Assembly: GCA_000002445.1 (NCBI GenBank)
Contig: CM000208.1
Span: 2,944,001 to 3,008,000 of the forward strand
Origin: Trypanosoma brucei
Taxonomy: Eukaryota
Direction of reading: 5' to 3'
Length of the DNA stretch: 64,000 bases
Under the pieces are notes generated by a model. It ran no database searches. It was not told the origin of the DNA and worked only from the letters and a program-made list of their open reading frames with translations. Positions 8,480-52,553 of the stretch are shown here, piece after piece (position 1 is the first letter of the stretch; the number at the start of each line of letters is the position of its first letter). Made by a program: the position numbers and the translations under genes.

Positions 8480-11400
8480 TCAGAAGAAAAGAGCGGGCCT
8501 CTCCACCAAGGTCGAGTTTGTGCGTGCAAATTTGCTACGTGCCGGTGCATCACGCTGCTTATTCAGTGAAAAGGTCCGTCGCCGCACATAACCATTCTGG
8601 TTGTTGCTACTGCTTCGGGAATCCCAACGCATCCCTGCAGCAGCATCAACCGACACTGAAGACCTCGACCGCAACAATCCTTTGGGTGCGTCACGCTGCG
8701 GGCGCTGGGAATGTCCTCTCTTTAACGAAGTTTGAAGGGATGTAGCGCGTATCAATTGGGAAGTGGTGATGGGCTGTCCAACCTGACACCGCAGCAACTC
8801 AGGATTCCGTTTCATTGCCTTCCGCCTGACAAGGTCGCTATGGTGCTTGTGGGCTGTTACGGTTGCCGTTACGTGCTGTCGCCGCCGTTCCGCGAGTCCG
8901 AGTCGGCGTGACACCTCATCGGTCGTACGCTGCTTCACCGCCAGTTGGTGCTGAAGCACAGCTAATTTCATGTCCCGTTCCCGAGACTCGTGCTGGTGGC
9001 GGTTTTTCAGTACGTGTTTATTAGCCTCCTGAATGCGTATTTCCTCTTTTGCCTTATTCAGTTTAGCAGTCAGCTCCGCCACTTCACGCTGAGAATTGCA
9101 ATATTCTTCGTTCAACTTTTCCCACTCAATCTGCACTTCACGCAGTTGCCTCTCAGATGTGCGTTGCTTCATATTGTGCTCCTCAATGTATGTGTAGAGG
9201 TGAGCAATTTGTCCTTCCATCTGTTCCCGTTCATCCATATAATCCTGGTCAAGTGCAACGAGGCTCTTGTATTCGTTCTCTCGGTGTAGCAATCGCTCTT
9301 GCAAGAGCCGGTTCTCACACTCCAAGTCCTCAATCCGATAGTCGCGCTCTCTACTGCAAAGGATTTCATCTTCTAGTTGCTTCTTCAGGGTTCGCACCTG
9401 GCTGCGCAACTGCACATTCTCGTGGCCCTGGTGTAGCGATGCGGATCCAGAGTTTTCCACTACGTCACCACCATACCCCACTGACATGAAGCGTGCCTTC
9501 TGTTGTGGAGTTAGCAGAATCCATATACTACGAAATGCCTCGTCTTTTTTCTGCATCTCCTGAAGTAAGGCGCAGTGCTCCTTGTTGCCTCGTTCAAGTT
9601 CCTCCTCTGTACTCGTCAAACGACTTTGCAGTACATCACAGAGATTTCTCTGATCCTCAAAGGCAGTTGTCAATCGTTCACATTCTTCAGCGCGCTCACC
9701 AGACGCCTTGAACCACGCAACTGTCTCTTCACGAATAACACGTTCAGTATATTCATGAAGAAGTTTAAGGTTGAGCTCTTCCAATTGGTCCGTTAATCCC
9801 GTGTTTTCGTTCGTCACCCTCTCTAACCGTTGCCGAAGTTCCTCGCAGCTTTTTTCCGTCTGCACAATATGTTTTCTTGCCTCCAGGAGCTCTGCCATAG
9901 TACGCTTCTGCTCACTGCGCATCGCTTCCACGGTCTTCGCCATTACCTGCTTTTGCTCGCTCATGCTATCAAACTGTTCTTGCATCCACCGAAAAGTGTC
10001 CGTTACCTTATGAAGCAACTCACTAGTTCCTACCTCCAATACGGCCTCTTCAAGAGTTTGTTGCGCTTCATCGCACTGCCGTACTCGTTGCTCCAGTTCC
10101 TGCCGAAGCTCCTCGGCTACGTCCCCACGCGACTCCAGTGAACAGAGATCCCGTTCGCGTTCACGCAAGACACTCTGGAAAATAGCACACTGGCGCTCTA
10201 GAGCCACCACATGGTCCCGAATCACTGGATCTTCGGCGCTGTTGGCGCCAGATGCATTGGCTAGTGAGTTTTCCGTGTTCGTTGCCGCATCACCATTTAC
10301 CTTCTGGGGTTGTTCAGGTTCCTTTCCTTCATGATCCATACCATCGTTTGAATTGGGAGCATGCTTCTCCCTTCGTGTTAGGGATGAAAGTTGCTTTTCA
10401 ATGTTCACCTCTTCTTGAAGTGTGGCGACACGGTGGCGCAAAGTTTCAATTTCCCGCGTAAGATTTCCATAAGCTTCCTCAAAACTACACCCATTCCTCA
10501 TAAGCAAATCTCTTACTCTTTCTTTTGTCTTTGTTAGAACGCACCGTTTTGCCGTTGTAGCAAAGTCAAGCGAACTCTTTGTTTCCGCAGCACTGCGTTT
10601 GTCGAGTGACACAGTCGCGATAAGAAGAAGATAACAGTCAGCGAGAGTCGATGCAAGGTAAAGCGTGAGCATCGACTCTCGGACTGGAAGTACATCCGCC
10701 TCCTCGGCCGTAGCCCTAATTACGGAGTGCAGAACTGAAAGTGACTTGTTTATGGCAATAGCTTCCCCTAGTTCGTCACCCACCACTCCTGTTCGCTTTA
10801 CACGCTCCGACCCTGCCAAATCACCCAAAGTTAAGCGACTCGTAAACACTGGAATACCGCCAACACACTTTGTTACATGTAGGGAAAGCAGTACATGCGA
10901 CCGGGAACTGCGTGCGTTTAACGCGTGGTGACTGACAAAACGCTTTCTCTGCGCTTCAGCGATGCGTGCAATTGCAAGAGTTGCATTCTGCACGAGGTAA
11001 CGGGGCTCGGGAACCGCGGTGCCCAAAGGTTTTTGGAGCAGCATACCGTGTTCTGATTTCCCTCTCCCCAGCAAGTTGTAGGCATTGTTGGTGTATATTT
11101 GTATATACCACAATTCTATAATGTCGTTCTCAGCGTCAAGGTTGTCAAACAAAGCATTGATAAAGGCGGGTGCCAAAACGTTAATTGTGTGCGTCTTCCC
11201 GCTCCCCGTTTGCCCGTAGCAGAGGACACAAGCATTGAAGCCAGCCCTCAGCTGCTCAACTATACCCGGAACTATCGACTCACATATTTCGCTATCACTC
11301 ACTGACGGGCCAAAGACACGACCAAACTCATACGTACGTTGCACCTCTTTTGCCCCATCGGCAGTTGGTGTTATGACTGTAAGCATGTTCCCCTCTTCGG

Positions 11401-11887
11401 TTCCGGCGATGGGTGCGAAACAGGGTACCGGCCGAGTTGCGCCCCTTCCGGTCACCACAGGCCCGCCGTTAATATTGGAACTACTAGAAAGGCTCATGTT
11501 TGAGAGACTACCCCTCTCATCGCCCTGTCCGCCACCACCAATATTTGCTGCCTCTTCGGCACTTTTGGCACATTGGTTGGCACTGCCGAGACGGGCACTT
11601 TCTCGCCGACAACCTGTCCGTGGTGTTGTTGCTAACGTTCCAGTTTCAATAACGTACCTCAGGAGATTGCTATTGTCACTAGAAGGTTTTACACGGACTG
11701 CAACCCTCACAGCATCCTGGCTACTCTGCGACCCCCGCGGTGTCCGCTCAACCTTTCCACGGCAGCGGACAGGCGTACTCCCCTCCCGTTTCACTGTTGA
11801 CTGAGTTGTCACCGGTGTCGTCGCACCGATTTGAGGTATACCCGCCAGTACCTGAGCTGAGGATGAAGAAGACATCATCTGCCTCAC
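8480..11887 (-). CDS. Kinesin-like protein, N-terminal motor domain plus long coiled-coil stalk (1135 aa)
   Basis: P-loop GQTGSGKTHT, switch I NARSSRSHVLLSL and switch II LGDLAGSER are all present. The remainder is E/Q/L/R-rich heptad-like sequence. There is a Gly/Ser low-complexity insertion near the motor N-terminus. Confidence 0.9.
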   Translation of the reverse strand: MRQMMSSSSSAQVLAGIPQIGATTPVTTQSTVKREGSTPVRCRGKVERTPRGSQSSQDAVRVAVRVKPSSDNSNLLRYVIETGTLATTPRTGCRRESARLGSANQCAKSAEEAANIGGGGQGDERGSLSNMSLSSSSNINGGPVVTGRGATRPVPCFAPIAGTEEGNMLTVITPTADGAKEVQRTYEFGRVFGPSVSDSEICESIVPGIVEQLRAGFNACVLCYGQTGSGKTHTINVLAPAFINALFDNLDAENDIIELWYIQIYTNNAYNLLGRGKSEHGMLLQKPLGTAVPEPRYLVQNATLAIARIAEAQRKRFVSHHALNARSSRSHVLLSLHVTKCVGGIPVFTSRLTLGDLAGSERVKRTGVVGDELGEAIAINKSLSVLHSVIRATAEEADVLPVRESMLTLYLASTLADCYLLLIATVSLDKRSAAETKSSLDFATTAKRCVLTKTKERVRDLLMRNGCSFEEAYGNLTREIETLRHRVATLQEEVNIEKQLSSLTRREKHAPNSNDGMDHEGKEPEQPQKVNGDAATNTENSLANASGANSAEDPVIRDHVVALERQCAIFQSVLRERERDLCSLESRGDVAEELRQELEQRVRQCDEAQQTLEEAVLEVGTSELLHKVTDTFRWMQEQFDSMSEQKQVMAKTVEAMRSEQKRTMAELLEARKHIVQTEKSCEELRQRLERVTNENTGLTDQLEELNLKLLHEYTERVIREETVAWFKASGERAEECERLTTAFEDQRNLCDVLQSRLTSTEEELERGNKEHCALLQEMQKKDEAFRSIWILLTPQQKARFMSVGYGGDVVENSGSASLHQGHENVQLRSQVRTLKKQLEDEILCSRERDYRIEDLECENRLLQERLLHRENEYKSLVALDQDYMDEREQMEGQIAHLYTYIEEHNMKQRTSERQLREVQIEWEKLNEEYCNSQREVAELTAKLNKAKEEIRIQEANKHVLKNRHQHESRERDMKLAVLQHQLAVKQRTTDEVSRRLGLAERRRQHVTATVTAHKHHSDLVRRKAMKRNPELLRCQVGQPITTSQLIRATSLQTSLKRGHSQRPQRDAPKGLLRSRSSVSVDAAAGMRWDSRSSSNNQNGYVRRRTFSLNKQRDAPARSKFARTNSTLVERPALFF

Positions 11888-12345
11888 CTAGCAGGCAGGT
11901 GTACACTATTGTCACACTTCTTCCGTCTGATTCCCTCACCCCTTACGGTTCCAAGTAATGTCACGGGATTCCAAACCCTTATTTACTAAAAACAGGGTCA
12001 GATCTGTTGAGCGGTTCACCAAGTAGGTCCCAACCGCCTTTCGGAGCCCAGTGCGTCTTACCTACTTTATCCCTTGGGCGTTAAACCAATATAATTGACG
12101 TAGATCTTTGCCTGAAGCTAACTCTACAGAGTAATACAGCTCTCCAGCTACACCTAAAAAGAAGTGAGTTGCCCAACCAATTTAACTCTCTTCGTTTCTT
12201 CCATTTAATAAAGCAGAAATACATGTGAAAACAACATTTGGAAAGAGAGTTGCACAACCAAGTACATAAGCAGTCTCCACAGTAAAGCAAAATTAAAAGC
12301 GCATGCCCGTGAGCTTAGAGCATAGGAGGGCAATGGCCGTCGCCT

Positions 12346-12655
12346 CAACTTCACCACGTACGACATTCGACCCCATCTTCGGCATGTGATCCGTTCCCAT
12401 CGTCACAGGAAGTGACTCACCGGTCAGTGCTGCTTCGTCAACGTCAATCACACCTTCGTTAATCGTGCAGTCAGCGGGAACGGCGGAACCAGACCCAAGC
12501 TTCACAAGGTCACCGGGAACCAGTAATGCGGCGTCTATCTGCTGCCAGGTACCGTCACGGTAAGCGGTCGCAATAGGTTTCAAAGAGTTCTTCAGTGCAG
12601 CGACCGCATCACCAGCTTTTATCGTCTCATACCACCCAATGAGAGCGTTAGCGAG
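12346..12655 (-). pseudogene. Internal fragment (about codons 119-222) of the P-type H+-ATPase gene; relic copy
   Basis: About 310 bp nearly identical to 21229-21540 of the full gene (ORF 12293..12583 translates KPIATAYRDGTWQQIDAALLVPGDLVKLGSGSAVPADCTINEGVIDVDEAALTGESLPVTMGT...). Homology stops abruptly at both ends. There is no start and no P-type catalytic motifs. Confidence 0.85.
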
Positions 12656-14630
12656 TAATGTTAGAACACCGAACCACCATGTTCTGGCTATTTTTTTGTA
12701 CTACTAATACTCCTTTCCACCCCTTTGTTCGTGTGTGTGGAGGGAGTATTAAAACCAGAGCACGAACACTGCGTGCACTGCAGAGAACATATGTGGAAAT
12801 TCAAATATTAACTGTGACGAGATTGAACATTTGGTGCGGTTCCTTCTTGACATAACCGCGTATCAGAAGGAACACGTTAGGGAATTTCCTAACCGACCAT
12901 AGTTTTTCGCCACATGCACACGTGGCTTATTCCTTTGCTACCTCCTTCATGCGGCAATTGCCGCCGCGCACCGTAACGGTAAACCCAGTGTATGACCTCT
13001 CAAGAAATACAATGGTATGCATTTTCGCAGGATGACAAAAGAAGAGGACCTATATCATCTTTGTCCCTTCGCAATTTGCTCCGCTCCCCTTGAAAAAAAA
13101 AAAATCACATGACCGTACCGCCAAGAAACTTTCACCGCGAGAAGAAAAAAGAGAAGAATAAAATGAGCTTCGAGGGTCAGAAGCAGTTTGAAGGTAACAG
13201 GTGAGCGTAGCGAAAGGAACAACGGCCTAAATAGAGTGATATTCTCCCACAATAACCTTTTCCTCTTCGCTTATTTGGCGTTCCCTTACTGATAGCACTT
13301 TTACCGGTAAACAAACTACCACGCATGCGACCGACCACAGGTTTTGAAAAAAAAAAGCTTTAGATTTTATTTAACAATCTCATTTTCCCCTCTGACTACG
13401 TCCGCACGGAAAAAAAATCAGAAAATAATTTAAGAGAAAGGTACAAAAAAATAAAGGAAAAACGTGCCAACACATTGCCCTCGTTTCTACTGGTTTTGTT
13501 TTATTTGATACCTTCGATACTGCGCCCCAAAACGACGGAAACCGCGAGTCAGTTCAGTAAAAGATTTGTGCACGATCCAAGGTTTGTAAGATTTCTTTTT
13601 CATCCTTTACCGTTTCTTTGGGAAGGATGGATGGAAATGCGACCGTCATCTCCCTTTTTTCTGTCTCCACGCGCTCCCGCTCAAATTTCCCTTTACTCCT
13701 CCTCTTTTTTCTTCGAAAGGGTGGGGCATTCGCATACGCGTACGTGCAGAAATACACTTACGGATATTTGCAATAATGTGCAAAGGGAGATGATCGGCAC
13801 GTTAAAGGAGAAAACGAAAAATATTGCATCACAACCGAATTACTCCCGCGGCGCCACTCGCCCCTTTTTTTTCTCCCAAGTACCCAATACCACAAACCAC
13901 CCACTTTGAAAAGTTCCCCCCCTTTTTTTCCTTAGCCTCTGCTTTTTCCTAACCTCACTCCCCTGGCAATAATGTAGTTCCTCTTCTCCATTTCTCTTTC
14001 TCTCCCCATAAATGCCCGGGTTACACTGAGCACCAAAATATTTCACACAATGGTGCGGTGCTACTACGATGAAGCGAAGGAAAAAAAAAAGATGGATAAC
14101 CTCACAAATTTCACTCGTGTTTTCTTCTCAATTTCTCATTGATTGCATTCGTAAGCTTTCCCCCTTTTACATATATCTTAAAATCTTTTTACAATAAACA
14201 CTACTCGCTTCCCTCCTCTTTCCGCTATCATCAATGTAAGTACAACAAAATTACGCAAGCACCCAAGCTGTAAACGCGTGCTTCGTTCATAAGAAAATGA
14301 CGCTCTATCTTTTTTTTCCTTTACCTTTCATTACATTATCAATCTTTCGCAGTGTGTCAGTCCTATCGTTTGCCCTCCCACACACACACTTACACACACA
14401 CCATCATTACCAACTACTAAAAGTTCAAAACAAATAAACAATAACAACGATAATAAAGTCACCTCGTCATCTCTCCACTTTACGAGAGGGAATCATGACC
14501 GGTCCATCGAAATAATGCCGAGGCACATCGGAGGTTGCGAAATGGCCAGTTTTTTTCTCATTACACTTCGTCCCGTGTTTAGGAATTTTTTTAAACTGAA
14601 GGCTCTAATTACAGAGTCGACCGCGCGAGA

Positions 14631-14693
14631 ACCACCACCACCACCACTACCACCACCACCACCACCACCAAAAAAACAAACAAACAAACAAAG
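14631..14693. repeat. (ACC)13 followed by (CAAA)n microsatellite
   Basis: accaccacca... at 14631-14670, then aaaaaaacaaacaaacaaacaaag. Confidence 0.9.
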
Positions 14694-15444
14694 CGTTTAC
14701 GATAAAAAAAAAAAAGAATTAAGGAAAAGATCTTTTATTTCTCAGCATACACTCATGCTACTGCTGAAGCGTGCGACTGGGGTGACAAAATTAGAGGTTT
14801 ACGCTGCCGCTAATGGACAGGAGAACATCAGGCAACTGTTGAAATGCATATGGATGAGAACAATACCACACGCATGCAGCTCGCTACGTCCACGGTTGCG
14901 AGGGGAAATTGAATTATAACGACGGAACAATACCAAAAAAATCCGCTTTCCCACAAGTTAATGCACTGAAACATCGCAAAAAAAAGATGCATGAAAAGAA
15001 TATCCTCTCCAACAACAATACCCCACCTCTAGAGTTACCGATCACAGCCATGTCGCACACATAAAATACTCACAATAAAGACCGTTATATGTCTTTTCAT
15101 TAAAGAAAAGAAAAAAAATTAATAAAGCCAACATATAAGGGAAATAATGAGGATGAGGCAACAACGGAAGCGCACTGTTCAACCCCACAACAGCTTCGTG
15201 ATTCCCCACCTTCACCCACCCACCTTCACGCTCATTCAAAGAAAAAAAACATACACAAAAACTTACTAAGCATCCCTGATTAAAATGAAGGCCAACAGAT
15301 ACCACATTTCTAACCCCAATTCGCGAAAAGGAAAATAACACACGCACGCGCCTCCATATTAGCACAAACCAAACGAGAAAAGCGCAGCTTTATAAAAAAA
15401 AATCAATGTGATTGTTCCGAAAGGAGAAAAAAAATATAATATTT

Positions 15445-18183
15445 TTAAATAGGTTCCTTAGACGACTTAGCATTATAAACAATTTCTTTCCCACCGCTTG
15501 CACGAGACACACAGCCAAATATGTCGAAGGCCTCCATTAGCATGTGAGTCAAAACCTTCACGACATCTTGGACGATCCACCACAAAATGCAATATATCCA
15601 AACCCAAAGTGGATACAATCTATCCGCAACAGTTTCACCTCGTGCAAGACCCTCGACAGGAACACCATCAGAACTTGATTTCTTCCAAACCGAGGCGGCG
15701 ATCGTCGAGATTACCAGTGAGATCACCGCACCGACCAGCAGTATAGTGCCCGGAGCCATCGAGAAAAAGAACCTTCCACCAGTACGTGAGGAGAATAGAG
15801 TCAAGAAGTCAGAAATCGATATCTTGAGGTACAGGAGAGTAACTATTTTGCCCTCCTTCAAGGAAGGAATGTTGAGTTTGCCAAACCAAGAGTTGGGGTA
15901 CCTTTTCTCATCATAAGCATCAAGAGCCATCCACAGCAGTAGTAGAGACGAGGCACAGGCAACAACAGACATAATTATAGCGCTTGTGAACACAACAGGA
16001 ATGTTCCAACGCTGCGGAAGCTTCGAGGGCACCACACGGTCATATCCAATGGTCATCAGGCACCCGTCGTTCAGGAGCGTGATCAGCATGAACATCATCA
16101 CTGGGAGGTAGAAAACCTGGAATTCGGGGTTCTCAATTCCATAGTCGTGAGGTGTCAACGAGAAGCAGGCGATAAAAAAGAAGCACACCAACTGCATTGT
16201 GGCGGAAATACGGTATGTTAGAAAAGACAACATACGTTGGAACACCTGGCGCGATACAAACATCGCATCAACAACAACACTCAAACCAGGGTCTGTCAGC
16301 ACCATGTCTGCCGCGGCACGAGCGGCGTCTGTCGCGCCCTGTACAGCAATACCGACGTCCGCACGTTTCAGGGCAGGCGCGTCGTTCACACCATCACCAG
16401 TCATCGCGCACGTGTACCCGCGCTGCCGAAGCGCCTCAACGATCAAAAACTTGTGCTCGGGGAAGACCTGTGCGAACCCGCCGACACTCAGCATCATGTC
16501 ACCGTACTTCTCGCCAAGGTCGCTGGGCATATCGTTGACATCCACCTTGGGAAGCTTCTCGGCGGTTAGGATGTTCGGATCAAGGTCCAGCATGCGGCAC
16601 ATTTCCTTCGCAATGAGCACATGGTCACCAGTGATCATCTTTACATCCACGCCATACTGCCTACTACGGCGAATTGTCTCCTTCGTGTCCGGGCGCGGGG
16701 GATCGAGGAACGTCAGGATTCCACAGAGATGCCAACGACCCGCGGAGTCTGTTTTCGCCACAGAGAGGCATCGGATACCGCGCGACGCCAATTTGTCAAT
16801 GATATCGACCACAGAGTCATTGATCTCATCTTGATTGTGCACCATCTCTATAATAACGTGTGGTGCGCCTTTCGTCACACTGAACTTCTCACCACTTCGC
16901 TTATCAACCAATGTAGCGGCCGTTCGTTTCGTCGTTGGATCAAATGGCACGAACTCAAGCTGCTCGTAGTTGTCGCACTCGTCCAGATCTGCAGCACCAA
17001 GTACCATCGTGTCCAGTGCATCACGGGGAGGCTCACGCCACTTTGCTGCAAGCGCGGAAAGTACAAGCAGTGAACGCAGATCGTGACCCTTCTCAAATGT
17101 GAAGCACTGTTCCTGAATCTCCATCTTGTTCAACGTCAGAGTACCGGTTTTGTCAGAGCAAAGCATGTTCACACCAGACATTGTCTCAATGGCTGTCAGT
17201 CTCGTCACAATGATTTTGTGCTTCGACAGCTTCTTTGAACCCACAGCGAGAGTGGTCGTCACAACAATCTCCAAAGCAATAGGAATGGATACCACAAGCA
17301 CTACAACAGCGAACTGCAAGGCATCACGGAACTTTTGCTTGAAATTTACCATCAGATAGATGAAGCAAATCAAGCAAAGTACGAACGAGAAACTCGACAA
17401 GATGACCATCACGCGCATGAGAATTATACGGATACTGCCAATGTCAGCCTCCACAGACTGAAGTAGCGTTGCCGTCTTGCCAAAAAAGGTGCTCTGACCT
17501 GTGTATTGCACCGTCGCATCAACTTCACCACGTACGACATTCGACCCCATCTTCGGCATGTGTTCCGTTCCCATCGTCACAGGAAGTGACTCACCGGTCA
17601 GTGCTGCTTCGTCAACGTCAATCACACCTTCGTTAATCGTGCAGTCAGCGGGAACGGCGGAACCAGACCCAAGCTTCACAAGGTCACCGGGAACCAGTAA
17701 TGCGGCGTCTATCTGCTGCCAGGTACCGTCACGGTAAGCGGTCGCAATAGGTTTCAAAGAGTTCTTCAGTGCAGCGACCGCATCACCAGCTTTTATCGTC
17801 TCATACCACCCAATGAGAGCGTTAGCGAGCTGAATGCCGAGCAGGACGGCACCATCAGCAAAGTGCTGTAACGCAAACTGGATTATTATGACAATCCACA
17901 AAACAATCGGCATAGGGCCCCATAGATTCCGCAAAAATATCAGCCAACTGGGTGTTTTCTTTTCCGGCAGCTCGTTACGACCGTATTTAAGCAACAACTC
18001 CTCTGCTTCCGCGGATGTCAATCCCTTCGAGGGCGGCACCAGTGGTACACTGCCATCATCACCCTCACGGTGCTCACTGATAGCCTTTGATAGCACAGAT
18101 TGGCGGCGTTGCGGTTTCTGTGGCTTGTGCACTTCACCGGCGTCGTTGGTTCCCGGAACACCCTTTGGTCCAGTATCCCCCAT
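15445..18183 (-). CDS. P-type (type IIIA-like) plasma-membrane H+-ATPase, copy B, 912 aa
   Basis: Phosphorylation motif CSDKTGTLT, hinge MITGDHV and GDGVNDAPALKRADVGIAV are present, with about 10 TM helices. It resembles trypanosomatid H+-ATPases (TbHA / TcHA / LDH1 family). It is about 99% identical to copy A except for the last ~60 codons. Confidence 0.95.
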   Translation of the reverse strand: MGDTGPKGVPGTNDAGEVHKPQKPQRRQSVLSKAISEHREGDDGSVPLVPPSKGLTSAEAEELLLKYGRNELPEKKTPSWLIFLRNLWGPMPIVLWIVIIIQFALQHFADGAVLLGIQLANALIGWYETIKAGDAVAALKNSLKPIATAYRDGTWQQIDAALLVPGDLVKLGSGSAVPADCTINEGVIDVDEAALTGESLPVTMGTEHMPKMGSNVVRGEVDATVQYTGQSTFFGKTATLLQSVEADIGSIRIILMRVMVILSSFSFVLCLICFIYLMVNFKQKFRDALQFAVVVLVVSIPIALEIVVTTTLAVGSKKLSKHKIIVTRLTAIETMSGVNMLCSDKTGTLTLNKMEIQEQCFTFEKGHDLRSLLVLSALAAKWREPPRDALDTMVLGAADLDECDNYEQLEFVPFDPTTKRTAATLVDKRSGEKFSVTKGAPHVIIEMVHNQDEINDSVVDIIDKLASRGIRCLSVAKTDSAGRWHLCGILTFLDPPRPDTKETIRRSRQYGVDVKMITGDHVLIAKEMCRMLDLDPNILTAEKLPKVDVNDMPSDLGEKYGDMMLSVGGFAQVFPEHKFLIVEALRQRGYTCAMTGDGVNDAPALKRADVGIAVQGATDAARAAADMVLTDPGLSVVVDAMFVSRQVFQRMLSFLTYRISATMQLVCFFFIACFSLTPHDYGIENPEFQVFYLPVMMFMLITLLNDGCLMTIGYDRVVPSKLPQRWNIPVVFTSAIIMSVVACASSLLLLWMALDAYDEKRYPNSWFGKLNIPSLKEGKIVTLLYLKISISDFLTLFSSRTGGRFFFSMAPGTILLVGAVISLVISTIAASVWKKSSSDGVPVEGLARGETVADRLYPLWVWIYCILWWIVQDVVKVLTHMLMEAFDIFGCVSRASGGKEIVYNAKSSKEPI

Positions 18184-19132: not shown

Positions 19133-21895
19133 TTATAGCGTAGGTTCTTTAGGTGCACCACCCTCACCATCTTTACACACGCTGCCACACTCAACATCGG
19201 CCCCTCTCCCAGAACGCGACACACAGCCAAATATGTCGAAGGCCTCCATTAGCATGTGAGCAAGAACCTTCACGACATCTTGGACGATCCACCACAAAAT
19301 GCAATATATCCAAACCCAAAGCGGCAACAGCTTCGCTGCGGTATCTCCTCCAACCGCAAGACCCTCCGTCGGCACACCATCAGAACTTGATTTCTTCCAA
19401 ACCGAGGCGGCGATCGTCGAGATTACCAGTGAGATCACCGCACCGACCAGCAGTATAGTGCCCGGAGCCATCGAGAAAAAGAACCTTCCACCAGTACGTG
19501 AGGAGAATAGAGTCAAGAAGTCAGAAATCGATATCTTGAGGTACAGGAGAGTAACTATTTTGCCCTCCTTCAAGGAAGGAATGTTGAGTTTGCCAAACCA
19601 AGAGTTGGGGTACCTTTTCTCATCATAAGCATCAAGAGCCATCCACAGCAGTAGTAGAGACGAGGCACAGGCAACAACAGACATAATTATAGCGCTTGTG
19701 AACACAACAGGAATGTTCCAACGCTGCGGAAGCTTCGAGGGCACCACACGGTCATATCCAATGGTCATCAGGCACCCGTCGTTCAGGAGCGTGATCAGCA
19801 TGAACATCATCACTGGGAGGTAGAAAACCTGGAATTTGGGGTCCTCAATTCCATAGTCGTGAGGTGTCAACGAGAAGCAGGCGATAAAAAAGAAGCACAC
19901 CAACTGCAGCGTGGCGGAAATACGGTATGTTAGAAAAGACAACATACGTTGGAACACCTGGCGCGATACAAACATCGCATCAACAACAACACTCAAACCA
20001 GGGTCTGTCAGCACCATGTCTGCCGCGGCACGAGCGGCGTCTGTCGCGCCGTGTACAGCAATACCGACGTCCGCACGTTTCAGGGCAGGCGCGTCGTTCA
20101 CACCATCACCAGTCATCGCGCACGTGTACCCGCGCTGCCGAAGCGCCTCAACGATCAAAAACTTGTGCTCGGGGAAGACCTGTGCGAACCCGCCGACACT
20201 CAGCATCATGTCACCGTACTTCTCGCCAAGGTCGCTGGGCATATTATTGACATCCACCTTGGGAAGCTTCTCAACGGTTAGGATGTTCGGATCAAGGTCC
20301 AGCATGCGGCACATTTCCTTCGCAATGAGCACATGGTCACCAGTGATCATCTTTACATCCACGCCATACTGCCTACTACGGCGAATTGTCTCCTTCGTGT
20401 CCGGGCGCGGGGGATCGAGGAACGTCAGGATTCCACAGAGATGCCAACGACCCGCGGAGTCTGTTTTCGCCACAGAGAGGCATCGGATACCGCGCGACGC
20501 CAATTTGTCAATGATATCGACCACAGAGTCATTGATCTCATCTTGATTGTACACCATTTGTAGTATCACGTGTGGTGCGCCTTTCGTCACACTGAACTTC
20601 TCACCACTTCGCTTATCAACCAATGTAGCGGCCGTTCGTTTCGTCGTTGGATCAAATGGCACGAACTCAAGCTGCTCGTAGTTGTCGCACTCGTCCAGAT
20701 CTGCAGCACCAAGTACCATCGTGTCCAGTGCATCACGGGGAGGCTCACGCCACTTTGCTGCAAGCGCGGAAAGTACAAGCAGTGAACGCAGATCGTGACC
20801 CTTCTCAAATGTGAAGCACTGTTCCTGAATCTCCATCTTGTTCAACGTCAGAGTACCGGTTTTGTCAGAGCAAAGCATGTTCACACCAGACATTGTCTCA
20901 ATGGCTGTCAGTCTCGTCACAATGATTTTGTGCTTCGACAGCTTCTTTGAACCCACAGCGAGAGTGGTCGTCACAACAATCTCCAAAGCAATAGGAATGG
21001 ATACCACAAGCACTACAACAGCGAACTGCAAGGCATCACGGAACTTTTGCTTGAAATTTACCATCAGATAGATGAAGCAAGCCAAGCAAAGTACGAACGA
21101 GAAACTCGACAAGATGACCATCACGCGCATGAGAATTATACGGATACTGCCAATGTCAGCCTCCACAGACTGAAGTAGCGTTGCCGTCTTGCCAAAAAAG
21201 GTGCTCTGACCTGTGTATTGCACCGTCGCCTCAACTTCACCACGTACGACATTCGACCCCATCTTCGGCATGTGTTCCGTTCCCATCGTCACAGGAAGTG
21301 ACTCACCGGTCAGTGCTGCTTCGTCAACGTCAATCACACCTTCGTTAATCGTGCAGTCAGCGGGAACGGCGGAACCAGACCCAAGCTTCACAAGGTCACC
21401 GGGAACCAGTAATGCGGCGTCTATCTGCTGCCAGGTACCGTCACGGTAAGCGGTCGCAATAGGTTTCAAAGAGTTCTTCAGTGCAGCGACCGCATCACCA
21501 GCTTTTATCGTCTCATACCACCCAATGAGAGCGTTAGCGAGCTGAATGCCGAGCAGGACGGCACCATCAGCAAAGTGCTGTAACGCAAACTGGATTATTA
21601 TGACAATCCACAAAACAATCGGCATAGGGCCCCATAGATTCCGCAAAAATATCAGCCAACTGGGTGTTTTCTTTTCCGGCAGCTCGTTACGACCGTATTT
21701 AAGCAACAACTCCTCTGCTTCCGCGGATGTCAATCCCTTCGAGGGCGGAAGCAGCGGTACACTGCCATCATCACCCTCACGGTGCTCACTGATAGCCTTT
21801 GATAGCACAGATTGGCGGCGTTGCGGTTTCTGTGGCTTGTGCACTTCACCGGCGTCGTTGGTTCCCGGAACACCCTTTGGTCCAGTATCCCCCAT
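19133..21895 (-). CDS. P-type (type IIIA-like) plasma-membrane H+-ATPase, copy A, 920 aa, distinct C-terminal tail
   Basis: Same motifs as copy B. The C-terminus differs: ...SRSGRGADVECGSVCKDGEGGAPKEPTL versus ...SRASGGKEIVYNAKSSKEPI in copy B. Confidence 0.95.
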   Translation of the reverse strand: MGDTGPKGVPGTNDAGEVHKPQKPQRRQSVLSKAISEHREGDDGSVPLLPPSKGLTSAEAEELLLKYGRNELPEKKTPSWLIFLRNLWGPMPIVLWIVIIIQFALQHFADGAVLLGIQLANALIGWYETIKAGDAVAALKNSLKPIATAYRDGTWQQIDAALLVPGDLVKLGSGSAVPADCTINEGVIDVDEAALTGESLPVTMGTEHMPKMGSNVVRGEVEATVQYTGQSTFFGKTATLLQSVEADIGSIRIILMRVMVILSSFSFVLCLACFIYLMVNFKQKFRDALQFAVVVLVVSIPIALEIVVTTTLAVGSKKLSKHKIIVTRLTAIETMSGVNMLCSDKTGTLTLNKMEIQEQCFTFEKGHDLRSLLVLSALAAKWREPPRDALDTMVLGAADLDECDNYEQLEFVPFDPTTKRTAATLVDKRSGEKFSVTKGAPHVILQMVYNQDEINDSVVDIIDKLASRGIRCLSVAKTDSAGRWHLCGILTFLDPPRPDTKETIRRSRQYGVDVKMITGDHVLIAKEMCRMLDLDPNILTVEKLPKVDVNNMPSDLGEKYGDMMLSVGGFAQVFPEHKFLIVEALRQRGYTCAMTGDGVNDAPALKRADVGIAVHGATDAARAAADMVLTDPGLSVVVDAMFVSRQVFQRMLSFLTYRISATLQLVCFFFIACFSLTPHDYGIEDPKFQVFYLPVMMFMLITLLNDGCLMTIGYDRVVPSKLPQRWNIPVVFTSAIIMSVVACASSLLLLWMALDAYDEKRYPNSWFGKLNIPSLKEGKIVTLLYLKISISDFLTLFSSRTGGRFFFSMAPGTILLVGAVISLVISTIAASVWKKSSSDGVPTEGLAVGGDTAAKLLPLWVWIYCILWWIVQDVVKVLAHMLMEAFDIFGCVSRSGRGADVECGSVCKDGEGGAPKEPTL

Positions 21896-35850: not shown

Positions 35851-38652
35851 CTACAACCAGAGTTCGTTCCTATCTGGGTTTAGCGAGTGAGTGAGATCAT
35901 TCAATGTGTGAAGCTGAACCTCACCCTTCTCGAACCCAAATACCACCATACGGCTTTCCGCCTTTGCCTCTGGTGGCGTGTCAAAGCAAGTGCAAATACC
36001 GGCGTTCGTCTGGGAAAGGGATTGCGAAAAAACGGGCAGTTCCCTTTCCCCCTTCGCCAAATCAAGCAAATAAAACATACCACCTGCGTCCAAAACCCAG
36101 TACAGCCACTTGTCCATTAGACTGCAGCGAATTTCAGTAACACGATGAGTGCTAAGGGGAATAGATATCTGTGGACTACCCTCGGTGTGCAGATACACCC
36201 TAACACTGCCATCATCGTACCCGACCATAAGGATTCTGTTATCCACAGGATTGTATTGCACACACGACGGCACAACAATGGGTTGATTAAAAAATCGCGA
36301 GGAGGGCCCGTAAACTGATGGCGCGGCCACACTACCGAAACGGCTAATGTGACGCACCCCCTCGGCGCACGCCACGACGTAATGAGACGGATCGGACGGC
36401 ACAAAATCAATGGCAAATGCTTCCTGCGATAGCGATGCTGAGTTTGCACGATCGCTGCCTTTGGACGCCGCCAATAGCAGTCGAACGGTGGAGAACATGT
36501 TCAATCCATTTTCATTATCAATGATGGCGCCCTTCGCCTGATCCTTTTCATTCACGACCCAAAAGTGTGTCTCACCGAAGGCATCGAGTGAAACTAGTTG
36601 TTCAGCTTCATCTTTCCGTATGCCCGTTGCTGTGTTGTACCCTGCAACAGTAACCGAAACCAACGGTGCCAAGTGATTACCTGCTTGCCACGATGTTGAG
36701 AAGGAGGGAAGACGGAATCTATGTCCTTCATAACGGCCGGCTGTCGTATGATTTCTCTCCGGCTCGCGGGTGTCCCATAAAAAAACAGAACCGTCTTCAG
36801 ACCCACCATAAATCAAGTAGGGTTTTCGCGGACTTGCGGATATACACGTGATCACTGATGGTGAGACAAGTACCTTCTCTGGTGCAGTGTTGTCATATAT
36901 ACTCCAGAGGAGAATCACTGACATGTAACGATCCATCTCCTTGGAGGGCCCTTCCTCCACACACGATCCATGAAGCGCCACTATATAGGTTGGATTGCAG
37001 GGATTAAAGAGGACCTTGAGCACAGGCCTGTTCCGCGCGGCAGAAAAGCAGAAGGAGACACACGATGACGAGAACTGCGTCTCACTTTTTGCCTTTGTTG
37101 CATCCGAACCCACTCCCTCGTTCTCATCCATAGCAGCGCGGATGATGGGAAAGACGCGGTTCAGAAATCCCGCCAACAGCGCCCCGTCAGCAAACTGCTG
37201 TTGTTGGGTATTTTCTGTCACAGTGCCCCCGTCCGTTCCTCCCTTTCCCGTGGTAAATTGTGCCACGTTATTTGTATGCAACTCTGGGCATAATCCCAGG
37301 TCCCGGGGCACTTCCACCCCGCGGCTTTTTACCCGCACACGCTCCGCTTGCACTCCGACGTCCGTACGATCCTCCTCTGCGGGATTTTGTACGCCTACTT
37401 GTTTACGACCCGACTCCCCAAAGCTTCGGATGTACATGTCATATTGAGATTGCGGCGGCGCATCAACCAGGGCAGCCGCAACATCATCCATATCTACCAA
37501 CCGTCGCAGTGCTGTCGCACGCTGTAAATCTTTGTCAAACTGGGTGACATACCCCTGCCGCTGGAGGTCTTCCGCGGCGAACGCGCTTGTGCCCAGAGGC
37601 CCCGTCGTCGCTTTGGAGTCATTTCCCCGCTTGTTTCGCTTCTCCTCCCGCTCTTTTCTCCGCAGTTCACGGCGTTCAAGTGCTTCTCGTTCTCTCTCTT
37701 CTTCAGCACGGCGTCTCTCATTCTGTTGAGCTGCTTCCTTTGCTTCGTGCGCCGCCTGGCGAATAGCATGATTCTCAGCCGCCATCGCTGCTGCCAGTTC
37801 TTCTGTTTTCTGCCCAGCTACTAGCGCAGTTGTGCGTCCTCGTCTACTTTCCGGTGACACACCTTGCTCATTCCTGGGGGACGCCTGCTTGGCTCCCTTT
37901 TTGTTACTAAGAATATCTTGAAGGTCATCCCCGTCCTCGTCAATGGTCTCCTCCTTTTCCTTTTCCATTTCCTTCTTTCCTTTCTCTTTTTTCTCTTCCT
38001 TTTCCTTGGCCTTGCGCTCAGCACGTTCCTTTTCTTTACGTGCTCGACGTTCTTCCTCTGTCTCGTCACGCTTTGACTTTCGCTCCTTCTCCCCATCATT
38101 CCCAACCTCTTTTTCCTCCTTTTCTTTTTTCTCTTCCTTTTCCTTGGCCTTGCGCTCGGCACGTTCCTTTTCTTTACGTGCTCGACGTTCTTCCTCTGTC
38201 TCGTCACGCTTTGACTTTCGCTCCTTCTCCCCATCATTCCCAACCTCTTTTTCCTCCTTTTCTTTTTTCTCTTCCTTTTCCTTGGCCTTGCGCTCGGCAC
38301 GTTCCTTCTCCTTACGTGCCCGGCGCTCTTCCTCTGTCTCGTCACGCTTTGACTTTCGCTCCTTCTCCCCATCATTCCCAACCTCTTTTTCCTCCTTTTC
38401 TTTTTTCTCTTCCTTTTCCTTGGCCTTGCGCTCGGCACGTTCCTTCTCCTTACGTGCTCGACGTTCTTCCTCTGTCTCGTCACGCTTTGACTTTCGCTCC
38501 TTCTCCCCATCATTCCCAACCTCTTTTTCCTCCTTTTCTTTTTTCTCTTCCTTTTCCTTGGCCTTGCGCTCGGCACGTTCCTTCTCCTTACGTGCCCGGC
38601 GTTCTTCCTCTGTCTCGTCACGTTTCGACTTCGTGGTCGTGTCGTCACCCAT
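35851..38652 (-). CDS. WD40-repeat protein with an N-terminal array of five 46-aa K/E/R-rich tandem repeats, 933 aa
   Basis: The N-terminus is 5 copies of KERKSKRDETEEERRARKEKERAERKAKEKEEKKEKEEKEVGNDGE. The C-terminal half carries WD-like units (GGSEDGSVFLWD, VGYDDGSVRVYL). Confidence 0.8.
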   Translation of the reverse strand: MGDDTTTKSKRDETEEERRARKEKERAERKAKEKEEKKEKEEKEVGNDGEKERKSKRDETEEERRARKEKERAERKAKEKEEKKEKEEKEVGNDGEKERKSKRDETEEERRARKEKERAERKAKEKEEKKEKEEKEVGNDGEKERKSKRDETEEERRARKEKERAERKAKEKEEKKEKEEKEVGNDGEKERKSKRDETEEERRARKEKERAERKAKEKEEKKEKGKKEMEKEKEETIDEDGDDLQDILSNKKGAKQASPRNEQGVSPESRRGRTTALVAGQKTEELAAAMAAENHAIRQAAHEAKEAAQQNERRRAEEEREREALERRELRRKEREEKRNKRGNDSKATTGPLGTSAFAAEDLQRQGYVTQFDKDLQRATALRRLVDMDDVAAALVDAPPQSQYDMYIRSFGESGRKQVGVQNPAEEDRTDVGVQAERVRVKSRGVEVPRDLGLCPELHTNNVAQFTTGKGGTDGGTVTENTQQQQFADGALLAGFLNRVFPIIRAAMDENEGVGSDATKAKSETQFSSSCVSFCFSAARNRPVLKVLFNPCNPTYIVALHGSCVEEGPSKEMDRYMSVILLWSIYDNTAPEKVLVSPSVITCISASPRKPYLIYGGSEDGSVFLWDTREPERNHTTAGRYEGHRFRLPSFSTSWQAGNHLAPLVSVTVAGYNTATGIRKDEAEQLVSLDAFGETHFWVVNEKDQAKGAIIDNENGLNMFSTVRLLLAASKGSDRANSASLSQEAFAIDFVPSDPSHYVVACAEGVRHISRFGSVAAPSVYGPSSRFFNQPIVVPSCVQYNPVDNRILMVGYDDGSVRVYLHTEGSPQISIPLSTHRVTEIRCSLMDKWLYWVLDAGGMFYLLDLAKGERELPVFSQSLSQTNAGICTCFDTPPEAKAESRMVVFGFEKGEVQLHTLNDLTHSLNPDRNELWL
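37950..38640. repeat. 138-bp coding tandem repeat, about 5 copies, near-identical
   Basis: The unit begins TGCTCGACGTTCTTCCTCTGTCTCGTCACGCTTTGACTTTCG... at 38041, 38179, 38317, 38455 and 38593. It generates spurious long ORFs in other frames (37821..38648 -, 37943..38695 +, 38040..38654 +). Confidence 0.9.

Positions 38653-52507: not shown

Positions 52508-52510
<3 letters not shown>

Positions 52511-52548
<38 letters not shown>
52511..52548. repeat. (AT)19 microsatellite
   Basis: Seen directly. Similar (AT)n runs occur at 53063-53082, 60695-60718, 62836-62858, 51073-51090, 51941-51960 and 54179-54196. Confidence 0.95.

Positions 52549-52553
<5 letters not shown>

What the first reader, a model, noticed from the sequence alone, without database searches (positions are those of the whole stretch)
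12346..12655. Orphan internal fragment of the H+-ATPase gene 2.8 kb downstream of the array, abutting the kinesin gene
A ~310-bp block, in frame as ORF 12293..12583, reproduces codons ~119-222 of the ATPase almost exactly (one E to D change) with no start, stop context or catalytic motifs. Near-identity to the live copies indicates either a very recent origin or ongoing gene conversion from the functional genes.
Basis: seen in the sequence. Interest (0 to 1): 0.55.

Follow-up and report, generated by a model that had tools for sequence, protein, structure and literature searches.

The report
Relic fragments flanking proton-pump genes
A 319-base piece of the trypanosome proton-pump (H+-ATPase) gene stranded next to a kinesin gene is real but non-coding: it is one of two leftover gene scraps that bracket the pump gene pair, most likely kept almost identical to the working genes by copy-correction, so it is an ordinary evolutionary relic rather than a new kind of element.

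Summary
Window 12337-12655 (- strand) is 99.7% and 99.4% identical to CDS nt 355-673 (aa 119-224) of the two H+-ATPase genes, TbHA3 (19133-21895) and TbHA1 (15445-18183). The kinesin here is identical to that of T. brucei TREU927, so the window matches chromosome 10.

The fragment has no start codon. It contains the TGES motif but not DKTGT.

It is not unique. A second orphan piece (22034-22187, nt 228-381) lies just upstream of the array, and the two cores overlap by 27 bp.

Both fragments, with the same junctions, are present in T. b. gambiense. The downstream one is also present in T. equiperdum. T. vivax and T. grayi have none. T. cruzi has a 1.5-kb truncated copy at the same kinesin-proximal position, and T. 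melophagium has a full divergent copy there.

Flanking non-coding DNA differs by 1.8-2.5% between 927 and gambiense, yet the fragment differs from a resident ATPase gene by 0-1 nt. This favours an old relic homogenised by gene conversion over recent origin.

The upstream fragment encodes the N-terminal part of the published chimeric "TbHA2".

Verdict: a new member of a known kind, of low to moderate interest.

The parts
12337..12655 (-). FragB: the orphan ATPase fragment of the finding. It equals TbHA CDS nt 355-673 (aa 119-224: end of TM2 plus the first half of the actuator domain, including TGES).
   Evidence: 99.7% and 99.4% to the two genes; PF00122, E=2e-26; translation, E207D.
12656..12688 (-). 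Possible degenerate 5' extension of FragB. It resembles CDS nt ~322-354 but has a 7-nt deletion, a 6-nt insertion and several mismatches.
   Evidence: MAFFT alignment. The anchored shuffle test is marginal (257/5000, p~0.05). The sequence is the same, bar one SNP, in gambiense and equiperdum.
11888..12336 (-). Unique 449-nt spacer between FragB and the kinesin ORF. Homology to the ATPase stops abruptly at 12337/12336.
   Evidence: no similarity above shuffles. The junction is conserved in gambiense and equiperdum. Transcript-like Logan contigs of the kinesin begin at 12168-12199, which is 3' of FragB.
12656..15444 (-). Unique 2.8-kb region downstream of the TbHA1 stop (3'UTR/intergenic) that separates the array from FragB.
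   Evidence: no ATPase homology, no repeats of note, no convincing ORF.
15445..18183 (-). TbHA1, the 912-aa P-type H+-ATPase and a possible donor for conversion of FragB.
   Evidence: (cluster with Q86DE0 and XP_823455.1). (Pfam).
19133..21895 (-). TbHA3, the 920-aa P-type H+-ATPase. It is the closest match to FragB in this genome (1 mismatch).
   Evidence: XP_823456.1 / AAP86973.1.
22034..22187 (-). FragA: a second orphan ATPase fragment equal to CDS nt 228-381 (aa 77-127, TM1-TM2), 98% identical to both genes. Its last 27 nt (22034-22060) duplicate the first 27 nt of FragB (12629-12655).
   Evidence: (variant 283A is shared with gambiense). (it encodes aa 62-112 of the published TbHA2).
22188..22242 (-). 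A11(CAA)6 microsatellite (22188-22207) followed by 35 nt (22208-22242) that are 71% identical to CDS nt 193-227. This is the decayed 5' edge of FragA.
   Evidence: alignment. (the unanchored best hit lands exactly at nt 193-227). (anchored shuffle, 33/5000).
21997..22033 (-). A 37-nt unique joint between FragA (CDS nt 381) and the ~101-nt 5' flank shared by both ATPase genes.
   Evidence: It is also present in gambiense.
8480..11878 (-). Kinesin gene abutting FragB. It is identical to T. brucei TREU927 XP_823454.1 and was used as the synteny anchor.
22322..24874 (-). Upstream neighbour 'gene X', an 850-aa hypothetical protein with no Pfam hit. The ATG of the published TbHA2 ORF (22366-22368) lies inside its 3' end, in another frame.

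Best explanation
FragB is a dead relic of a former or partial H+-ATPase copy at the kinesin-proximal end of the TbHA array on T. brucei chromosome 10. It is one of a pair: FragA sits at the opposite, gene-X-proximal end.

Shown:
- It cannot encode a pump or any plausible protein.
- It has the same orientation as the array.
- It is bounded on the 3' side by a clean rearrangement breakpoint.
- It is shared, junctions included, by 927, gambiense and equiperdum, so it predates their split.

Inferred:
- Its 319-bp core stays within 0-1 nt of the live genes because non-reciprocal recombination (gene conversion) from TbHA1/TbHA3 keeps overwriting it.
- Conversion tracts cannot spread past the 3' breakpoint or past the indel-disrupted 5' edge, and that produces the sharp-looking block.
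- Its only 'activity' is as a substrate for ectopic recombination. The partner FragA recombined with TbHA3 gives exactly the published chimeric TbHA2. FragB recombined with a live copy would give a 5.2-kb deletion or duplication, and it confuses assemblers.

How the pair arose is unresolved. It was either one complex event or separate truncations.
For: - Identity and boundaries.
- No coding capacity.
- Identical junctions in T. b. gambiense DAL972 (L002) and T. equiperdum OVI (L001), each assembly carrying its own SNPs.
- Age versus identity. Adjacent non-coding DNA differs by 1.81% (50/2756) and 2.45% (11/449) between 927 and gambiense. FragB differs from a resident ATPase gene by 1 nt (927), 1 nt (gambiense, and that change is in the gene) and 0 nt (equiperdum). 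With at least 3.8 differences expected per lineage without conversion, Poisson P(<=2 | 7.6) = 0.019.
- The only site inside FragB that distinguishes TbHA1 from TbHA3 (nt 666) is G in 927 and equiperdum but T in gambiense, whose single assembled gene has T.
- Old edge next to a young core. In FragA, 35 nt at 71% identity lie directly beside 154 nt at 98%. FragB shows a marginal equivalent.
- A decay series at the same position in other trypanosomes: full divergent copy in T. melophagium, 1.49-kb 3'-truncated copy at 98.7% identity in T. cruzi, and nothing in T. vivax or T. grayi.
- Frequent partial gene conversion and chimaeric copies in T. brucei tandem arrays are documented (PMC1855330; PMC2854126).
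- TbHA2 (AAM55480.1) equals the FragA region plus the TbHA3 body.
Against: - The conversion argument rests on few sites: 319 bp, one diagnostic site, and p about 0.02-0.06.
- Lower divergence could partly reflect chance or a locally low mutation rate.
- No decayed remainder of a full copy is detectable around FragB. 'Former full copy' is therefore an inference from other species, and orthology with the T. cruzi and T. melophagium copies is unproven. T. vivax and T. grayi lack any copy, so independent origins are equally parsimonious.
- The 27-bp overlap of the two cores is unexpected under independent truncations (about 2-4% by chance) and hints at a more specific single event.
- T. congolense, the key outgroup, could not be retrieved.
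Confidence: 0.62

Rival explanations
1. The two fragments come from a single event. On this view FragA and FragB are the two halves of one ~450-480-bp ATPase piece (nt ~193-673), or of one ancestral gene. That piece was split when a copy of the whole gene block (37-nt joint through the 2.8-kb 3' region, now ~9.4 kb) was placed inside it, with nt 355-381 duplicated. Possible mechanisms are two backward template switches during replication (FoSTeS/MMBIR-like) or re-integration of an excised segment. Later deletions trimmed the outer parts. Gene conversion would still maintain the identity.
For: - The 3' end of the FragA core (nt 381) and the 5' end of the FragB core (nt 355) overlap by exactly 27 bp, and the two fragments bracket the array in direct orientation.
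- The chance that two independent breakpoints fall within +/-27 nt of each other in a 2.76-kb gene is about 2-4%.
- This model needs fewer events (about 3) than independent duplications plus deletions (about 4).
Against: - No microhomology or other mechanistic signature was found at the joints.
- The predicted second copies of the 5' flank and of the 2.8-kb 3' region are absent, so extra deletions are still required.
- The degenerate 5' edges suggest the original fragments were longer than the cores, which makes the exact figure of 27 bp less meaningful.
- A recombination-prone spot at nt ~355-381 would explain the overlap equally well.
Confidence: 0.2
2. The fragment is of very recent origin. 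A piece of a live ATPase gene was copied into the spacer shortly before the present, for example as filler DNA captured during break repair, and is near-identical simply because it is young.
For: The block is 99.4-99.7% identical to the live genes, has a sharp 3' boundary, and has no detectable decayed remainder.
Against: - The identical insertion, with identical junctions, is present in three Trypanozoon taxa whose flanking DNA has diverged by 0.5-2.5%.
- The nt 666 state differs between taxa in step with the resident genes.
- The partner fragment has a 29%-diverged edge.
Confidence: 0.08
3. The fragment is an assembly artefact: a mis-joined read or contig in a collapsed repeat region produced a fragment that does not exist in the genome.
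For: - Tandem arrays are often mis-assembled (PMC2854126).
- The T. equiperdum scaffold runs from FragB into the gene body and then hits a 10-N gap.
- gambiense shows one gene where 927 shows two.
Against: - All four junctions are reproduced in gambiense, and both FragB junctions in equiperdum, with assembly-specific SNPs.
- FragA-specific variants (R89, M95) appear independently in a GenBank clone from strain 427.
Confidence: 0.03
4. The fragment is functional. It could be retained by selection as a regulatory part of the TbHA1 3'UTR or of the kinesin upstream region, as a small ORF, or as a deliberate 'homology anchor' that modulates array copy number or generates isoforms.
For: - It is conserved across Trypanozoon with fewer changes than its flanks.
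- The partner FragA does generate an alternative N-terminus in the published TbHA2, which complemented yeast (PMC6884021 citing Luo et al. 2006).
Against: - There is no start codon and no ATG-initiated ORF.
- There is no Rfam hit in the window.
- It is in sense orientation, so no dsRNA would form.
- It lies outside the transcript-like kinesin contigs.
- Recombination of FragB with a live copy would truncate the pump at aa 224.
- The low divergence is explained more simply by conversion.
Confidence: 0.07

Closest known systems
TbHA2 of T. brucei Lister 427 29-13 (AAM55480.1 / Q7Z1X2; Luo, Fang & Docampo 2006, as tabulated in PMC6884021)
   Same: Its first 112 residues are encoded by the sequence just 3' of gene X plus FragA, including the FragA-specific R89 and M95 (window 22368->22034). 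The rest is the TbHA3 body and tail (99.8%). It shows that the orphan fragments flanking this array recombine with the live genes, or are joined to them by PCR.
   Different: It concerns the upstream partner, not FragB. In the window FragA is not fused to a gene: it stops at nt 381 and is followed by 37 unique nt. The TbHA2 ATG is inside gene X and is out of frame with FragA in 927. No equivalent product is known for FragB.
Truncated terminal members of trypanosomatid H+-ATPase arrays (T. cruzi partial ATPase ORFs; 'gene fragments and pseudogenes' noted at these loci in PMC6884021)
   Same: T. cruzi (L004) has a partial ATPase copy (aa 19-513) at the same position. It lies between the last full ATPase gene and the orthologous kinesin, about 2.9 kb after the full copy, and is 98.7% identical to it. 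So it shares orientation, position and near-identity with FragB, and it is also a 5'-proximal gene part.
   Different: The T. cruzi copy is 1.49 kb, keeps the N-terminus and is called as a 501-aa ORF. FragB is 319 bp, internal, and has neither start nor end. Orthology is unproven, because T. vivax and T. grayi have nothing there.
Concerted evolution and partial gene conversion in T. brucei tandem gene arrays (Jackson 2007, PMC1855330; Jackson et al. 2010, PMC2854126)
   Same: Sequence mosaics and subspecies-specific chimaeras are reported there. Here TbHA1 and TbHA3 differ at only 21 clustered sites in 2,490 nt, the gambiense gene is a mosaic of both, and FragB tracks the resident genes.
   Different: Those studies treat whole gene copies within arrays. 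Here the converted target is a short non-coding scrap lying 2.8 kb outside the array.
Processed pseudogenes or retrocopies, and retroelement-mediated insertions (ingi/RIME/SIDER)
   Same: Both are intronless fragments of a transcribed gene found in an intergenic region.
   Different: FragB has no poly(A) tract at its 3' end, does not include the gene's 3' end, has no flanking target-site duplication, and has no retroelement sequence nearby.

Membership tests
Functional P3A-type H+-ATPase gene | Complete ORF with a start codon and about 10 transmembrane segments (about 900 aa). | tested here: not met
   Only aa 119-224 are present. There is no in-frame Met upstream, and stops lie on both sides.
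Functional P3A-type H+-ATPase gene | DKTGT phosphorylation motif and the P/N domains (PF00702). | tested here: not met
   DKTGT is at aa 344 of the genes, outside the fragment. Pfam finds only PF00122 positions 3-83 of 181.
Functional P3A-type H+-ATPase gene | Actuator-domain TGES motif. | tested here: met
TGES at aa 196 is inside the fragment.
Decayed full-length third gene copy (ordinary pseudogene) | Degraded homology extending over the rest of the gene on both sides. | tested here: not met
   tblastn, relaxed blastn, and local, anchored and global shuffle tests find nothing beyond about 30 nt at the 5' edge.
Relic or truncated terminal member of a tandem array | Same strand and locus as the array, at its end, with a partial unit. 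| tested here: met
   FragB lies 2.8 kb 3' of the last gene on the same strand, and FragA lies about 140 nt 5' of the first gene. Analogous terminal copies occur in T. cruzi and T. melophagium.
Relic or truncated terminal member of a tandem array | Presence at the orthologous position in related genomes, so that it is older than the strain. | tested here: met
   Present in gambiense and equiperdum with identical junctions. T. congolense could not be retrieved.
Sequence maintained by gene conversion (concerted evolution) | Paralog identity higher than expected from the age of the duplication, with variants tracking the resident donors. | tested here: inconclusive
   There are 0-1 differences to the resident genes against 1.8-2.5% flank divergence, P about 0.02-0.06. 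One diagnostic site (nt 666) co-varies with the resident genes. The direction is right but the number of sites is small.
Processed pseudogene / retrocopy | 3' poly(A) tract, inclusion of the mRNA 3' end, and a target-site duplication. | tested here: not met
   None of these is present at 12337 or in the flanks.
Split fragment with target-site-like duplication (insertion footprint) | Two halves in direct orientation sharing a short duplicated segment at the inner ends. | tested here: met
   nt 355-381 is present at the inner end of both cores. The feature is met, but it is not sufficient to prove a single insertion event.

The most novel reading that the evidence does not exclude
The two orphan fragments could be the two halves of a single ATPase segment that was split when the whole ~9.4-kb gene block was copied or re-inserted into it, duplicating 27 bp. 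That would be a preserved footprint of a replication-template-switch (FoSTeS/MMBIR-like) or excision/re-integration event in the transcribed core of a T. brucei chromosome. On this reading the flanking scraps would still act as recombination anchors that generate isoforms such as TbHA2 and copy-number variants.
Probability: 0.18. Interest if true: 0.5.

Novelty: new member of a known kind. Interest (0 to 1): 0.3.

Why it matters
The significance is mainly practical and local.

- The fragments explain an oddity in the literature. The third cloned pump gene 'TbHA2' has an unrelated N-terminus because it begins in the upstream orphan fragment and in the 3' end of the neighbouring gene. It is therefore a recombinant (natural allele or PCR product), not an independent ancient paralog.
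- The two near-identical scraps are traps for assembly, read mapping, copy-number calling, RNAi or CRISPR targeting, and PCR at this locus. The T. equiperdum scaffold and the differing gene counts between strains illustrate this.
- They give a small, clean example of gene conversion acting on a non-coding target outside an array in T. brucei.
- The 27-bp overlap offers a testable clue to how the array was built.

None of this changes understanding of the pump or of trypanosome genome biology in a major way.

Tried and rejected
- Exact-protein look-ups of the window's kinesin and both ATPases found nothing. The species was instead identified through the kinesin cluster.
- I searched for degraded ATPase homology around both fragments with tblastn (word 2, E<=50), relaxed blastn, and local, anchored and global alignments against shuffles. 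Only the 35 nt 5' of FragA is significant. The 5' edge of FragB is marginal. A 15-nt match to the gene's 5' flank at 12927-12943 is not above chance.
- The apparent long third copy in T. equiperdum (FragB continuing to CDS nt 2490) was rejected as evidence. That piece is an exact circular permutation of the cycle '3' region -> FragB -> gene body'. It ends at the TbHA1/TbHA3 divergence point and is followed by a 10-N scaffold gap. A real duplication cannot be excluded.
- Intergenic alignment to T. vivax, intended to polarise insertion versus deletion, failed because the regions are too diverged. Using T. vivax to polarise the decayed FragA edge gave only one informative site.
- T. congolense proteins are in the protein database without contigs, so the key outgroup locus could not be fetched.
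- The Luo et al. 2006 paper is not held.
- The Rfam scan, tandem-repeat search and inverted-repeat search found nothing relevant, and there is no plausible small ORF in the 3.5-kb spacer.
- The Logan contigs for the kinesin stop about 140-170 nt short of FragB. They say nothing about its junctions. They only suggest that FragB is outside the kinesin mRNA.

Full report
**What is there.** The window's kinesin (8480-11878, - strand) is residue-for-residue identical to T. brucei brucei TREU927 XP_823454.1. The two large ORFs upstream of it on the same strand are the 912-aa and 920-aa P-type H+-ATPases XP_823455.1 and XP_823456.1, that is TbHA1 and TbHA3 (names per PMC6884021).

Self-BLASTN confirms the finding. 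Window 12337-12655 is 99.69% identical to 21223-21541 and 99.37% identical to 17511-17829. That is CDS nt 355-673, or aa 119-224.

Translated in the ATPase frame, the block differs from TbHA3 only by E207D. It matches Pfam PF00122 and contains the TGES motif, but not DKTGT (aa 344). It has no upstream Met and is closed by stops on both sides. The listed 96-aa ORF is only a mechanical TTG ORF.

**Boundaries.** Nothing resembling the rest of the gene is detectable in the 3.5-kb spacer. I tested this with tblastn at E<=50, relaxed blastn, and local, anchored or global alignment compared with shuffles.

- The 3' boundary (12337/12336) is abrupt.
- At the 5' boundary about 30 nt align to CDS nt 322-354, with a 7-nt deletion, a 6-nt insertion and a few mismatches. 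This is only marginally better than shuffles (p~0.05).

**A partner fragment.** The same self-comparison shows a second orphan piece, 22034-22187. It equals CDS nt 228-381 at 98% identity. It lies between the stop of the upstream 850-aa gene and the 5' flank of TbHA3.

Its 5' side continues, after an A11(CAA)6 microsatellite, into 35 nt that are 71% identical to nt 193-227. The unanchored best alignment lands exactly there, and the anchored shuffle test gives 33/5000. Its 3' side stops at nt 381 and is followed by 37 unique nt.

The two cores overlap by 27 bp (nt 355-381) and bracket the whole array in direct orientation.

The array itself consists of two units that are 98% identical from about -101 to CDS nt 2490. 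They are 88% identical for the next 190 nt, and then unalignable, with different C-termini and 3'UTRs.

**Related genomes.**
- T. b. gambiense DAL972 (L002) has both fragments with the same four junctions, around a single assembled ATPase gene.
- T. equiperdum OVI (L001) has both FragB junctions. Its scaffold also runs from FragB into the gene body up to nt 2490. However, that piece is an exact circular permutation ending at the TbHA1/TbHA3 divergence point and is followed by ten Ns. I treat it as threading through the repeat and leave a real duplication open.
- T. vivax has the syntenic order DnaJ - gene X - one ATPase - kinesin, with no fragments.
- T. grayi has none between its ATPase and the kinesin.
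- T. cruzi has a 1.49-kb 3'-truncated copy (aa 19-513, 98.7% identical to the full copy) next to the kinesin, about 2.9 kb after the last full gene.
- T. melophagium has a full but diverged copy (86.5%) there.

So the kinesin-proximal end of this array holds anything from a full gene to a scrap in different lineages. Orthology of these copies is not proven.

**Young or converted?** Non-coding DNA on either side of FragB differs between 927 and gambiense by 1.81% and 2.45%, plus indels. The fragment, junctions included, is older than that split. Yet it differs from a resident ATPase gene by 1 nt in 927, 1 nt in gambiense (a change in the gene, not the fragment) and 0 nt in equiperdum.

Without conversion I expect at least 3.8 differences per lineage, and P(<=2 | 7.6) = 0.019. 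The 927-versus-gambiense comparison of FragB itself gives 2/319, P = 0.058.

The only TbHA1/TbHA3 diagnostic site within the block, nt 666, is G in 927 and equiperdum and T in gambiense, matching the resident genes.

FragA carries one variant shared by 927, gambiense and the strain-427 clone (283A). That shows it is an independent, inherited locus. Its 29%-diverged edge next to a 98% core is what a conversion boundary looks like.

Gene conversion and chimaeric copies are well documented for T. brucei arrays (PMC1855330, PMC2854126). The evidence therefore favours an old relic that is repeatedly overwritten, but it rests on few sites.

**Link to the literature.** The published TbHA2 (905 aa, AAM55480.1) has an N-terminus unlike TbHA1 or TbHA3.

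- Its aa 1-24 match window 22368-22297.
- Its aa 23-112 match 22303-22034, which is FragA plus the sequence 5' of it, including the FragA-specific R89 and M95.
- Its aa 62-905 match TbHA3 at 99.8%.

Its ATG lies inside the neighbouring gene's coding region, in another frame. In 927 that ATG is out of frame with FragA.

TbHA2 is thus what homologous recombination (a 514-bp deletion) or PCR template switching between FragA and TbHA3 would produce. PMC6884021 reports three genes for 427 29-13 but two for the TREU927 and Lister 427 genome assemblies.

By analogy, FragB recombining with a live copy would give a 5.2-kb deletion (pump truncated at aa 224) or a duplication.

**Function.** I find no sign of one.

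- There is no Rfam hit in the window.
- There are no repeats or hairpins of note.
- The fragment is in sense orientation.
- Transcript-like Logan contigs of the kinesin begin at 12168-12199, about 140-170 nt 3' of FragB.

**Origin.** Two models remain.

- (a) Independent truncations of outer array members. The overlap would then be chance (about 2-4%) or reflect a fragile spot.
- (b) One complex event that placed a copy of the gene block inside an ATPase segment with a 27-bp duplication, followed by trimming.

I could not discriminate between them. T. congolense contigs were not retrievable, and the intergenic DNA is unalignable to T. vivax.

**Verdict.** This is a relic gene fragment of a known kind, newly described for this locus as far as the held literature shows. 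It has a useful side result in explaining TbHA2. Interest is low to moderate.

Noticed in passing
window 22297-22368 (- strand): The ATG of the published TbHA2 ORF (MTYGLPRNHSLEKK...) lies inside the 3' end of the upstream 850-aa gene, in a different frame. In this genome it is out of frame with FragA because of an indel in an A/C run. The TbHA2 N-terminal 61 residues are low-complexity sequence translated from that gene's 3' end and the intergenic DNA that follows it.
   Followed up: yes
L001 1-5171 (T. equiperdum CZPT02000209.1): The first 5,161 bp of this scaffold end are an exact circular permutation. They start at the equivalent of window 15693 and end at 15694, and are followed by a 10-N gap. 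The ATPase part carries all 19 TbHA3-type variants but joins a TbHA1-type tail. This is a likely mis-threading through the 319-bp repeat, or else a real 5.2-kb tandem duplication.
   Followed up: partly
L002 3692-6430 (T. b. gambiense): The single assembled gambiense ATPase is a mosaic. It is TbHA3-like at nt 141-147, TbHA1-like from nt 666 onward, and has the TbHA1 tail. It is either the product of unequal crossover or a collapsed assembly.
   Followed up: partly
window 15445-18183 vs 19133-21895: The 21 differences between TbHA1 and TbHA3 in the first 2,490 nt are strongly clustered (for example six within nt 1329-1345, and pairs at 814/815, 1622/1623, 1650/1651 and 1986/1987). This suggests patchy conversion tracts or multi-nucleotide changes.
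   Followed up: no
L009 1-16 (Logan ERR7929159 contig): The contig begins with 16 nt that are the exact reverse complement of the 3' part of the T. brucei spliced leader. These are joined at an AG dinucleotide at window ~12199, upstream of the kinesin. The orientation is wrong for a normal trans-spliced mRNA, so it may be a library or assembly artefact. The three sister contigs shown start at 12168-12197.
   Followed up: partly
window 12927-12943 (- strand): The 15-mer GGTAGCAAAGGAATA about 290 nt 5' of FragB equals the ATPase 5' flank just before the ATG with a 7-nt deletion, and it is roughly collinear with FragB. A global alignment of the intervening 305 nt to the gene is not better than shuffles (z=0.84).
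   Followed up: yes
window 37978-38631: There are about 4.7 tandem copies of a 138-bp unit (92-97% identical) inside the 933-aa ORF 35851-38652 (- strand), which makes it a repeat-containing protein gene.
   Followed up: no
window ~50000-57600: This is a 7.6-kb AT-rich stretch (GC 30-37%) without any ORF >=250 aa, within an otherwise single-strand gene cluster. It contains a ~40-bp TA dinucleotide run (about 20 TA units) at 52510-52549, a 40-nt perfect palindrome at 55425-55464, and (TTG)n/(CAA)n tracts at 54470-55150.
   Followed up: no
L003 18949-23390 (T. vivax): T. vivax carries three tandem Longin-domain genes where T. brucei, T. cruzi and T. melophagium show one. This is another lineage-specific tandem expansion in the same syntenic block.
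   Followed up: no
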